Under the pieces are notes generated by a model. That model worked only from the letters and a program-made list of their open reading frames with translations. It did no database searches and was not told the origin of the DNA. From contig OZ024742.1 of the NCBI GenBank assembly GCA_964016885.1, positions 16,058,001-16,122,000 on the forward strand: a DNA stretch of 64,000 bases. The letters are read 5' to 3'. The position numbers and the translations under genes are program-made. Positions 60,732-63,650 of this stretch are shown piece after piece (the first letter of the stretch is position 1; the number at the start of each line of letters is the position of its first letter). The DNA comes from Eledone cirrhosa. Taxonomy: Eukaryota.

Positions 60732-63650
60732 ACATAGAATATTCGAAAATATTCTGTATGTTTATAATAAACATTTTGAAGACCTAATCGCTATAGAATA
60801 GAATACGTCACGTATTACAATTAGATTCTCGATAAAAGCAAGGGAAGTAATCTACGCGTTTCATTCTTGTTAGAAATCATCAGGACTACATATCCAGTGC
60901 TTTTATCGAGAATGACACAGCTAGAGACTTATAGAATACTTAGCTGTGTACAGGAACTGGTTTGAAAGAGCGGTTGCCGGTCCGGCAGAAATTAGAAATT
61001 GGAATAAATGCTCTGAAATAGCGATATATATGTGAATATAGACATAGAATATTCGAAAATATTCTGTATGTTTATAATAAACATTTTGAAGACCTAATCG
61101 CTATAGAATAGAATACGTCACGTATTACAATTAGATTCTCGATAAAAGCAGGGGAAGTAATCTACGCGTTTCATTCTTGTTAGAAATCATCAGGACTACA
61201 TATCCAGTGCTTTTATCGAGAATGACACAGCTAGAGACTTATAGAATACTTAGCTGTGTACAGGAACTGGTTTGAAAGAGCGGTTGCCGGTCCGGCAGAA
61301 ATTAGAAATTGGAATAAATGCTCTGAAATAGCGATATATATGTGAATATAGACATAGAATATTCGAAAATATTCTGTATGTTTATAATAAACATTTTGAA
61401 GACCTAATCGCTATAGAATAGAATACGTCACGTATTACAATTAGATTCTCGATAAAAGCAAGGGAAGTAATCTACGCGTTTCATTCTTGTTAGAAATCAT
61501 CAGGACTACATATCCAGTGCTTTTATCGAGAATGACACAGCTAGAGACTTATAGAATACTTAGCTGTGTACAGGAACTGGTTTGAAAGAGCGGTTGCCGG
61601 TCCGGCAGAAATTAGAAATTGGAATAAATGCTCTGAAATAGCGATATATATGTGAATATAGACATAGAATATTCGAAAATATTCTGTATGTTTATAATAA
61701 ACATTTTGAAGACCTAATCGCTATAGAATAGAATACGTCACGTATTACAATTAGATTCTCGATAAAAGCAGGGGAAGTAATCTACGCGTTTCATTCTTGT
61801 TAGAAATCATCAGGACTACATATCCAGTGCTTTTATCGAGAATGACACAGCTAGAGACTTATAGAATACTTAGCTGTGTACAGGAACTGGTTTGAAAGAG
61901 CGGTTGCCGGTCCGGCAGAAATTAGAAATTGGAATAAATGCTCTGAAATAGCGATATATATGTGAATATAGACATAGAATATTCGAAAATATTCTGTATG
62001 TTTATAATAAACATTTTGAAGACCTAATCGCTATAGAATAGAATACGTCACGTATTACAATTAGATTCTCGATAAAAGCAAGGGAAGTAATCTACGCGTT
62101 TCATTCTTGTTAGAAATCATCAGGACTACATATCCAGTGCTTTTATCGAGAATGACACAGCTAGAGACTTATAGAATACTTAGCTGTGTACAGGAACTGG
62201 TTTGAAAGAGCGGTTGCCGGTCCGGCAGAAATTAGAAATTGGAATAAATGCTCTGAAATAGCGATATATATGTGAATATAGACATAGAATATTCGAAAAT
62301 ATTCTGTATGTTTATAATAAACATTTTGAAGACCTAATCGCTATAGAATAGAATACGTCACGTATTACAATTAGATTCTCGATAAAAGCAAGGGAAGTAA
62401 TCTACGCGTTTCATTCTTGTTAGAAATCATCAGGACTACATATCCAGTGCTTTTATCGAGAATGACACAGCTAGAGACTTATAGAATACTTAGCTGTGTA
62501 CAGGAACTGGTTTGAAAGAGCGGTTGCCGGTCCGGCAGAAATTAGAAATTGCGTAGATTACTTCCCTTGCTTTTATCGAGAATCTAATTGTAATACGTGA
62601 CGTATTCTATTCTATAGCGATTAGGTCTTCAAAATGTTTATTATAAACATACAGAATATTTTCGAATATTCTATGTCTATATTCACATATATATCGCTAT
62701 TTCAGAGCATTTATTCCAATTTCTAATTTCTGCCGGACCGGCAACCGCTCTTTCAAACCAGTTCCTGTACACAGCTAAGTATTCTATAAGTCTCTAGCTG
62801 TGTCATTCTCGATAAAAGCACTGGATATGTAGTCCTGATGATTTCTAACAAGAATGAAACGCGTAGATTACTTCCCTTGCTTTTATCGAGAATCTAATTG
62901 TAATACGTGACGTATTCTATTCTATAGCGATTAGGTCTTCAAAATGTTTATTATAAACATACAGAATATTTTCGAATATTCTATGTCTATATTCACATAT
63001 ATATCGCTATTTCAGAGCATTTATTCCAATTTCTAATTTCTGCCGGACCGGCAACCGCTCTTTCAAACCAGTTCCTGTACACAGCTAAGTATTCTATAAG
63101 TCTCTAGCTGTGTCATTCTCGATAAAAGCACTGGATATGTAGTCCTGATGATTTCTAACAAGAATGAAACGCGTAGATTACTTCCCCTGCTTTTATCGAG
63201 AATCTAATTGTAATACGTGACGTATTCTATTCTATAGCGATTAGGTCTTCAAAATGTTTATTATAAACATACAGAATATTTTCGAATATTCTATGTCTAT
63301 ATTCACATATATATCGCTATTTCAGAGCATTTATTCCAATTTCTAATTTCTGCCGGACCGGCAACCGCTCTTTCAAACCAGTTCCTGTACACAGCTAAGT
63401 ATTCTATAAGTCTCTAGCTGTGTCATTCTCGATAAAAGCACTGGATATGTAGTCCTGATGATTTCTAACAAGAATGAAACGCGTAGATTACTTCCCTTGC
63501 TTTTATCGAGAATCTAATTGTAATACGTGACGTATTCTATTCTATAGCGATTAGGTCTTCAAAATGTTTATTATAAACATACAGAATATTTTCGAATATT
63601 CTATGTCTATATTCACATATATATCGCTATTTCAGAGCATTTATTCCAAT
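60732..63650. repeat. 310-bp hammerhead-containing tandem array 2, polarity inversion at 62550/62551
   Basis: Same monomer as array 1; 6 minus-strand hammerheads (60847 + 310n) and 3 plus-strand ones (62829, 63139, 63449); (TA)n flanks. Confidence 0.97.

What the first reader, a model, noticed from the sequence alone, without database searches (positions are those of the whole stretch)
60732..63650. Second, independently homogenised ribozyme array 48 kb away
Seen: the same 310-bp monomer, but every complete copy has loop II AACA where array 1 has AACG. The fixed difference falls in a loop and preserves all pairing. Flanks, arm lengths and the inner junction differ. Inference: a separate insertion from a different RNA variant, so the unit is mobile rather than only locally amplified.
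Basis: partly seen in the sequence, partly recalled or inferred. Interest (0 to 1): 0.75.

Follow-up and report, generated by a model that had tools for sequence, protein, structure and literature searches.

The report
Mirror-image arrays of a jumping ribozyme
Two near-identical mirror-image arrays of a 310-base repeat that carries a predicted self-cutting (hammerhead) RNA sit 48 kb apart in separate TA-repeat tracts, with different ends and junctions, likely because a Penelope-type retrotransposon enzyme pasted each in separately; the element is of a known kind, but its insertion footprint likely points to the enzyme that moves it.

Summary
Observation holds: array 2 (60732-63650) lies 48,019 bp from array 1; loop II reads AACA in 9 of 9 ribozyme copies versus AACG in 12 of 12. 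The unit fits an animal non-LTR retrozyme (type I hammerhead, 310 nt). Both arrays are divergent palindromes in (TA)n with one short and one 36-44 nt longer outer end, like three neighbouring hammerhead-bearing repeat families: the published Penelope-like element (PLE) footprint. Independent insertion is supported; the best-holding run has 655 contigs of the unit and both loop alleles (G about 25% of depth). Corrections: array 2 is not homogeneous (T/C at position 12 in 3 of 10 copies, same order in both arms); uniformity is better read as birth from one template lineage than as homogenisation; the right flanks share an older 85% repeat; the variable base lies in the loop used for tertiary contacts. 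A second run of the same organism shows only A>G/T>C changes (10 of 10 listed), like ADAR hyper-editing. Hits under 16 other organism labels look like carry-over, unresolved. Mobilising enzyme, cleavage and circles were not shown. New variant of a known kind.

The parts
60732..62551 (-). Array 2 left arm: about 5.9 head-to-tail units, 6 hammerhead cores; inner end at monomer position 162, outer (short) end at 121; position-12 alleles from the junction outward T,T,C,T,C,T
62551..63650 (+). Array 2 right arm: about 3.5 units, 3 complete hammerhead cores; inner end at monomer position 306 (5 nt before the predicted cleavage site), outer (long, tail-bearing) end at 165; position-12 alleles T,T,C,T
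62829..62871 (+). One predicted type I hammerhead: 6-bp stem I, CUGAUGA core, U-U at the base of stem II, loop II with the A/G site at 62850, GAAA, one-pair stem III with palindrome ACGCGU, predicted cleavage after GUA at 62865
   Evidence: Rfam Hammerhead_HH9 19.2 bits, E 0.033, below gathering score 52
62866..63175 (+). One unit-length monomer between predicted cleavage sites (310 nt, about 34% GC); predicted long extension of stem I, fold z-score -4.38
60707..60731 (.). (TA)n tract at the left end of array 2 (inferred target)
63651..63798 (.). (TA)n tract at the right end of array 2 (inferred target)
8690..10367 (-). Array 1 left arm: about 5.4 units, 5 cores, all AACG; inner end at monomer position 2 (the predicted cleavage site), outer end at 131 with TA microhomology to 139
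10368..12713 (+). Array 1 right arm: about 7.6 units, 7 cores, all AACG; inner end at position 302, outer (long) end at 167
59768..60706 (.). Left neighbour of array 2: divergent fold-back repeat (family D) with a hammerhead-like motif (CAGAAGA core variant) in each arm and a 90-nt tail on one end; a second copy without an array lies at 3289-3575
63799..64000 (-). Right neighbour of array 2: tail-bearing end of another hammerhead-bearing repeat (family B); relatives at 6684-7167 (90%) and 12737-13088 (85%)
15494..17534 (+). Context, not shown to be the mobiliser: broken PLE-like reading frame (RT-like part, then a GIY-YIG-like C-terminal part with an upstream CxCxxxxxC motif)
   Evidence: Atlas leads RVT_1 (0.91, 16% of members) and GIY-YIG (0.95, 31% of members); no Pfam or PDB hit; no homology to the monomer

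Best explanation
Array 2 and array 1 are likely two separate, recent insertions of one non-LTR retrozyme family, a 310-nt unit with a predicted type I hammerhead, each likely written into a (TA)n tract by the reverse transcriptase and GIY-YIG endonuclease of a Penelope-like element acting in trans. Shown in the sequence: divergent two-armed arrays, TA tracts at all four outer ends, one short and one 36-44 nt longer outer end per array, three of four inner ends within 9 nt of the predicted cleavage site, one fixed loop difference, two haplotypes inside array 2. Inferred: arrays are transcribed; tandem hammerheads cleave (probably as dimers through the ACGCGU palindrome) to unit RNAs that may circularise; the PLE enzyme cuts AT-rich DNA and starts reverse transcription at two internal sites 120-167 nt past the cleavage site; it copies several units in one go; the second arm arises either by priming from the other cut strand or by fold-back copying of the first cDNA; the two inner ends are joined with 0-1 nt of microhomology. 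The arrays are therefore likely born multi-copy and uniform, each from the loop allele of its donor RNA. The template of array 2 was not one monomer circle: it was likely a multimer (linear or circular) or a set of monomers used in turn. Read-through across a palindrome would give kilobase double-stranded RNA, a likely ADAR substrate.
For: Ends, junctions and flanks differ between arrays. Same divergent, TA-embedded architecture in three other hammerhead-bearing families in the window; 5 of 6 two-armed insertions with a ribozyme in both arms have one short and one long end. PLE insertions are described with an inverted 5'-truncated copy, a 30-40 bp tail often at one end and (TA)n bias (PMC8557442, passages); a purified PLE protein cuts AT-rich DNA, extends both strands and starts at two internal sites that delimit the tail (PMC11167929, main results read). 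Run X1 (best holder): 655 contigs laid, tandem join depth 28,984 against 10.9 for one 646-nt partly overlapping contig, both loop alleles (G 91,591 of 372,717 depth, 11 contigs), 10 contigs leaving the unit into TA at monomer 139 and 1 at 170. Inner ends near the cleavage site: 3 of 4, binomial P about 0.0009, chosen after seeing the data.
Against: No autonomous PLE homologous to the monomer was found; the PLE-like frame in the window is broken and unrelated in sequence. No strand-changing joint was listed in any of the 4 runs laid, so the palindromic form is shown only in this window. Rfam score is below threshold. Tails of the neighbouring families are about 90 nt, longer than the published 30-40 bp, and one of six insertions has two short ends. 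The commonest end (139) coincides with a natural (AT)4 tract, so it may reflect annealing rather than a protein-defined start. In PMC11167929 ribozyme cleavage was not needed for insertion in vitro, and in the 2026 preprint 8 of 9 tested dimers did not cleave. No whole genome was available for a census.
Confidence: 0.78

Rival explanations
1. The unit is mobile but is moved by another machine: an L1/Tx1-type LINE reverse transcriptase with twin priming, or DNA-level rolling-circle re-integration at breaks in (TA)n tracts.
For: LINE frames with AP-endonuclease and RT domains lie at 21-37 kb. In array 2 the left arm's inner end (162) nearly abuts the right arm's outer end (165), as twin priming on one RNA would leave it (mechanism recalled). 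Long (TA)n tracts are plausible fragile sites (recalled).
Against: Array 1 does not show that contiguity. No poly(A) tail or LINE 3' homology is visible. Two recurring end classes and the same footprint in three other hammerhead families match PLE descriptions. DNA-level circles would not explain inner ends at the predicted RNA cleavage site.
Confidence: 0.12
2. One array was duplicated 48 kb away and then reshaped by unequal exchange and gene conversion, which fixed the loop allele (the local-amplification model).
For: Arrays are 99.7% identical, lie close together, have similar long ends (165, 167) and share about 110 bp of right flank at 85%. The 2026 preprint proposes local amplification for retrozyme tandems.
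Against: Flank similarity is far older than the arrays, not colinear, and belongs to a repeat with a third copy; left flanks share nothing. Both junction ends and one outer end differ. Both alleles and more TA junctions exist elsewhere.
Confidence: 0.07
3. The palindromes or copy numbers are assembly artefacts (fold-back chimeric reads, collapsed repeats).
For: Near-perfect 1-2 kb palindromes and tandem arrays are hard to assemble (general knowledge); no strand-changing joint was listed in the runs laid.
Against: The inversions stop at TA tracts and do not extend into the flanks; the two arms end at different places; older families show the same form with arms diverged to 94.6-97%; alleles are array-specific.
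Confidence: 0.03

Closest known systems
Metazoan non-LTR retrozymes (Cervera and de la Pena 2020, PMC7229834; Li et al. 2026, 10.64898/2026.07.22.740005)
   Same: Tandem non-coding units of 150-450 bp, GC under 50%, one type I hammerhead per unit, self-paired predicted fold, many copies, PLE-like sequence in the same genome. U-U at the base of helix II and a palindrome-capped one-pair helix III each occur in axolotl families.
   Different: Arrays here are two-armed palindromes in (TA)n with a tail at one end; the word 'inverted' does not occur in the main text of PMC7229834 and, in the preprint, only in a reference title. No target-site duplication is discernible. Cleavage and circles are untested here. 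No homologous PLE pseudo-LTR was found.
Penelope-like element insertions (Craig et al. 2021, PMC8557442; Frangieh et al. 2024, PMC11167929)
   Same: Inverted 5'-truncated copy next to the direct copy, tail at one end, microsatellite or AT-rich target, 3' ends a short way downstream of a hammerhead.
   Different: No protein-coding frame; many full units in both arms; hammerhead has canonical 6-bp helix I and short helix II rather than the minimal PLE form described in PMC4209133.
Non-autonomous Chlamys elements such as MRC1 (PMC8557442, passage)
   Same: Non-autonomous PLE-dependent units giving multicopy head-to-tail insertions.
   Different: Those generally resemble their autonomous partner at the 3' end and most Chlamys lack hammerheads; here no partner homology was found.
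Newt satellite 2 and schistosome SM-alpha / W-element repeats (PMC6155905, PMC8490949, passages)
   Same: Hammerhead-bearing tandem repeats; dimer cleavage with weak palindromic helix III.
   Different: No sequence relationship tested; palindromic arrays with tails not seen in the passages read.

Membership tests
Non-LTR retrozyme | Tandem units of about 150-450 bp, GC under 50%, no LTR/PBS/PPT, no coding frame | tested here: met
   Period 310, GC about 0.34, no frame of 150 aa or more in either array; PBS/PPT were not searched separately
Non-LTR retrozyme | Type I hammerhead consensus core in every unit | tested here: met
   21 of 21 complete cores have CUGAUGA, GAAA, GUA and a 6-bp stem I; Rfam HH9 match is weak, E 0.033
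Non-LTR retrozyme | Self-cleavage of the transcript | not testable with these tools
   Predicted only; needs in vitro transcription
Non-LTR retrozyme | Expression as unit-length linear and circular RNA | tested here: inconclusive
   Run X20 (kind not on record) covers the unit with editing-like changes and a contig crossing the cleavage site, but contigs cannot tell circle from tandem, nor RNA from DNA
Non-LTR retrozyme | Dispersed at many genomic loci | tested here: met
   Two loci in the window with unrelated left flanks; 655 contigs and further TA junctions in run X1; loci not counted
PLE-mobilised non-autonomous element | Inverted 5'-truncated arm next to the direct arm | tested here: met
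   2 of 2 arrays in the window; not confirmed outside the window
PLE-mobilised non-autonomous element | Tail of about 30-40 bp at one end | tested here: met
   Outer ends 131/167 and 121/165, differences 36 and 44 nt; only two arrays
PLE-mobilised non-autonomous element | Microsatellite / AT-rich target | tested here: met
   4 of 4 outer ends run into (TA)n
PLE-mobilised non-autonomous element | Sequence homology to the pseudo-LTR of an autonomous PLE | tested here: inconclusive
   None to the broken PLE-like frame or its flanks in the window; whole genome not held
Viroid-like replicating circular RNA | Exists and replicates apart from a DNA copy | tested here: inconclusive
   Genomic copies exist; a hammerhead core was found in one polarity of the unit only; presence under other organism labels is unresolved

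The most novel reading that the evidence does not exclude
The 310-nt ribozyme unit is a currently active RNA circle that both floods its host genome through PLE-made palindromic arrays and crosses between species: a letter-perfect copy assembles as a closed 310-nt cycle in a run labelled as another organism, and 16 other organism labels hold 70-90% of its words. It would be a viroid-like mobile element of animals caught in horizontal spread, with ADAR hyper-editing as the host's response.
Probability: 0.04. Interest if true: 0.9.

Novelty: new variant of a known kind. Interest (0 to 1): 0.5.

Why it matters
Which enzyme moves animal retrozymes, and whether their tandems are made at insertion or by later local amplification, is open: a 2020 review says the repeats show no motif pointing to their partner (PMC7761336), and the 2026 preprint argues from co-occurrence and pseudo-LTR homology and leans to local amplification. 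A very young, high-copy family whose insertions carry the PLE inversion, tail and (TA)n target makes both questions testable by a simple genome census, and haplotype order within arms can tell rolling-circle, multimer and fold-back models apart. The palindromes would also be a source of long double-stranded RNA for A-to-I editing.

Tried and rejected
Whole-genome census: no genome is held. Rfam at gathering threshold: 0 matches in 64 kb. Exact search for the hammerhead core pattern: 0 in viral contigs, 0 in prokaryote genomes, 1 in metagenome contigs, and that locus (L001) shares only the core, not the monomer. No RNA holder was listed by the run search; this is no evidence on expression. Raw reads of run X24 gave 0 reads in 1,938 million letters, which the tool marks as no test unless another stretch shows the organism. 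Pfam and PDB searches did not name the PLE-like frame. Idea that the G allele abolishes the conserved loop II-stem I A-U Hoogsteen pair: attractive if loop II is the tetraloop AAC(A/G), since that pair uses the last loop A and a U next to residue 1.6 (PMC2553840), but the Rfam HH9 alignment reads a six-base loop in which the variable base is second-last and the last A is kept in both alleles; left open. Idea that the G allele arose by ADAR editing: not supported, the site is not among those changed in X20 while neighbours are. Mirror order of position-12 alleles as proof of fold-back copying: permutation P 0.067, suggestive only. ADAR neighbour preference: 9 of 10 sites have 5' A or U, none G, P 0.078, suggestive only. 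Cross-species presence as horizontal transfer: not accepted; a single variant-free cycle at depth 11.9 without flanks is what carry-over of a very abundant repeat would give. Earlier findings of the scan: three look-ups returned nothing.

Full report
Observation. The window holds two arrays of a 310-bp unit: array 1 at 8690-12713 and array 2 at 60732-63650, 48,019 bp apart. Each is a divergent palindrome: a left arm on the minus strand and a right arm on the plus strand, with (TA)n tracts at all four outer ends. Loop II of the hammerhead is AACG in 12 of 12 complete cores of array 1 and AACA in 9 of 9 of array 2. Among the 10 full cleavage-to-cleavage units compared in array 1 there are three private single-base changes; among the 7 in array 2 there are none, but position 12 is C in some copies. 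Counting all copies that cover position 12, it is C in 3 of 10 in array 2 and 0 of 13 in array 1; from the junction outward the left arm reads T,T,C,T,C,T and the right arm T,T,C,T. So array 2 is not homogeneous.

The ribozyme. Each unit has a consensus hammerhead core with a 6-bp stem I, a U-U pair at the base of stem II, a one-pair stem III capped by a palindrome, and a GUA cleavage triplet. Rfam finds nothing at gathering threshold and a weak match to Hammerhead_HH9 (19.2 bits, E 0.033). The unit RNA folds more stably than 100 of 100 shuffles (z -4.38). The palindrome allows a 6-bp duplex between two copies (-9.5 kcal/mol), the dimer arrangement described for tandem animal hammerheads (PMC4209133, passages). 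Cleavage was not tested. The A/G site does not change predicted secondary structure, but loop II is where type I hammerheads make tertiary contacts. If the loop is four bases the site is the conserved last A (PMC2553840, passages); in the HH9 alignment the loop is six bases, the site is second-last, the A allele matches the family consensus and the last A is kept in both alleles. The effect on rate is open.

Ends and junctions. Numbering from the predicted cleavage site, the outer ends are 131 (with TA microhomology to 139) and 167 in array 1, and 121 and 165 in array 2; the inner ends are 2 and 302 in array 1, 162 and 306 in array 2. Each array thus has one short and one 36-44 nt longer end, and 3 of 4 inner ends lie within 9 nt of the cleavage site (P about 0.0009, post hoc). 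Junction microhomology is 0 and 1 nt.

Flanks. Of six flank pairs compared, four share nothing, the two right flanks share about 110 bp at 85%, and array 1 left with array 2 right share 33 bp (array 2's right flank is only 200 bp because the window ends). The shared piece is a different hammerhead-bearing repeat (family B) with a further copy at 6684-7167; next to array 2 it shows its long end and next to array 1 a short end of another sub-family. It is much older than the arrays and not colinear, so it does not mark a duplicated block. The repeats that abut the left ends of both arrays also occur elsewhere in the window, followed by (TA)n and no array (54876-55650 and 3289-3575).

Context. 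Three other families with hammerhead or hammerhead-like motifs (B, C at 13087-15150, D at 59768-60706) have the same form: divergent arms, (TA)n at the ends, and an extension of about 90 nt on one end. Of six two-armed insertions with a ribozyme in both arms, five have one short and one long end and one has two short ends. A broken reading frame at 15494-17534 looks like a PLE with a C-terminal GIY-YIG domain (Atlas leads; no Pfam or PDB hit); it has no homology to the monomer. The host is an animal with an AT-rich, microsatellite-rich genome; a resemblance of its short repeats to octopus SINEs is recalled, not tested.

Beyond the window. No genome is held. The run search listed 20 holders from 16 studies under 17 organism labels, with 70-100% of 30 sampled words. 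I laid 4 of the 24 listed runs on one monomer. X1 (organism A, the best holder, possibly the source sample and so not independent): 655 contigs, 365 of them at least 99% alike; the tandem join has depth 28,984 against 10.9 for one 646-nt partly overlapping contig (the tool warns that depth is not copy number); the loop G allele has 91,591 of 372,717 depth in 11 contigs; 10 contigs leave the unit into TA repeats at monomer position 139 and one at 170 (10 of 43 loose-end rows were shown). So the family is abundant, both alleles are family-wide, and more insertions exist. No strand-changing joint was listed, so the palindromic form is not confirmed outside the window. X20 (organism A, another sample, library kind not on record): all 10 listed changes are A>G (7) or T>C (3), 151 of 280 contigs are only 90-95% alike, and none of these changes is listed in X1. 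This looks like A-to-I hyper-editing of both strands, including loop II and core A14, but alleles or strains can mimic it. The G allele is not listed in X20. X4 (organism B): one 340-nt contig closing on itself, depth 11.9, no differences, no flanks. X24 (organism J, raw reads): 0 reads, marked as no test. Carry-over of an abundant repeat is the simplest reading of the other labels; horizontal spread is not excluded.

Mechanism. Shown: structure, ends, alleles, abundance. From the literature: PLE insertions often carry an inverted 5'-truncated copy, a 30-40 bp tail often at one end, and microsatellite bias (PMC8557442, passages); a purified PLE protein cuts AT-rich DNA, extends both strands and starts reverse transcription at two internal sites that delimit the tail, and did not need ribozyme cleavage in vitro (PMC11167929, first two of four parts read); animal retrozymes are proposed to be copied from circles by a PLE enzyme (PMC7229834, sections 14 and 17 and passages). 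Inferred: each array was written in one event by a PLE enzyme in trans, both arms from RNA of one loop allele, with the second arm made by priming from the other cut strand or by fold-back on the first cDNA. The recurring T/C in array 2 rules out a single monomer circle as sole template unless later conversion is invoked; the matching order in both arms (permutation P 0.067) leans to fold-back copying or a shared multimer. Near-identity needs no homogenisation.

Comparison and novelty. The unit meets the sequence criteria of a non-LTR retrozyme; cleavage and circular RNA are untested. The insertion form meets three PLE footprint criteria on two arrays; partner homology is not found. In seven literature searches I saw no listing that describes palindromic retrozyme arrays with PLE tails, a cephalopod retrozyme, or hyper-editing of animal retrozymes. 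Term checks found no 'inverted' in the main text of PMC7229834 and none outside a reference in the 2026 preprint, of which I read three of five parts; an octopus repeat annotation does not mention ribozymes (PMC13282606, passages). The supplement of PMC7229834 could not be read, one file of PMC4209133 was not searched, and bioRxiv supplements are closed; these could hold relevant examples.

Noticed in passing
window 6684-7167, 12737-13088, 63799-64000: Family B: divergent fold-back repeats with a hammerhead in each arm, in (TA)n; ends 50 or 140-142 nt past the predicted cleavage site. A similar tail (79%) precedes the broken PLE-like frame at 15483.
   Followed up: partly
window 13087-15150: Family C: 660-bp inverted arms (96%) with a hammerhead each, a 655-bp spacer and a 93-nt tail on one end; likely a truncated PLE insertion.
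   Followed up: partly
window 59768-60706 and 3289-3575: Family D: fold-back repeat whose hammerhead-like motif has CAGAAGA in place of CUGANGA and a U-U at the base of stem II; 90-nt tail on one end. Read by eye from alignments; activity unknown.
   Followed up: partly
window, all tail-bearing insertions: The long (tail) end lies on the right in six of seven cases in this window; may be chance or reflect nested insertion order.
   Followed up: no
window 62551 and 63650: In array 2 the left arm's inner end (monomer 162) almost abuts the right arm's outer end (165), as if the two arms were consecutive parts of one RNA; array 1 does not show this.
   Followed up: partly
run X20 laid on window 62775-63084: Clustered A>G and T>C changes only, including loop II and core A14; resembles ADAR hyper-editing of both strands.
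   Followed up: partly
runs X4-X19: The unit is held at 70-90% of words under 16 other organism labels; one laid run gave a single variant-free cycle at low depth. If carry-over, this repeat is a sensitive marker of cross-contamination.
   Followed up: partly
window 38892-51654: 12.8-kb minisatellite of a 27-bp unit (about 470 copies, 85% matches) giving long open frames on both strands.
   Followed up: no
window 21263-36797: Cluster of at least five GC-rich L1/Tx1-like LINE copies (AP endonuclease and RT domains; a zinc-knuckle ORF1-like frame at 28244-29278), separated by (TATC)n tracts.
   Followed up: no
window 7210-7567 and 3850-4104; 6499-6646; 12860-13070: Further fold-back repeats next to TA tracts; no hammerhead core found in 7210-7567 by the scan used.
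   Followed up: no
L001 435-474: Unrelated AT-rich metagenome contig with the same hammerhead core and ACGCGT palindrome, plus other fold-back pieces; probably a PLE-like repeat of another animal.
   Followed up: partly
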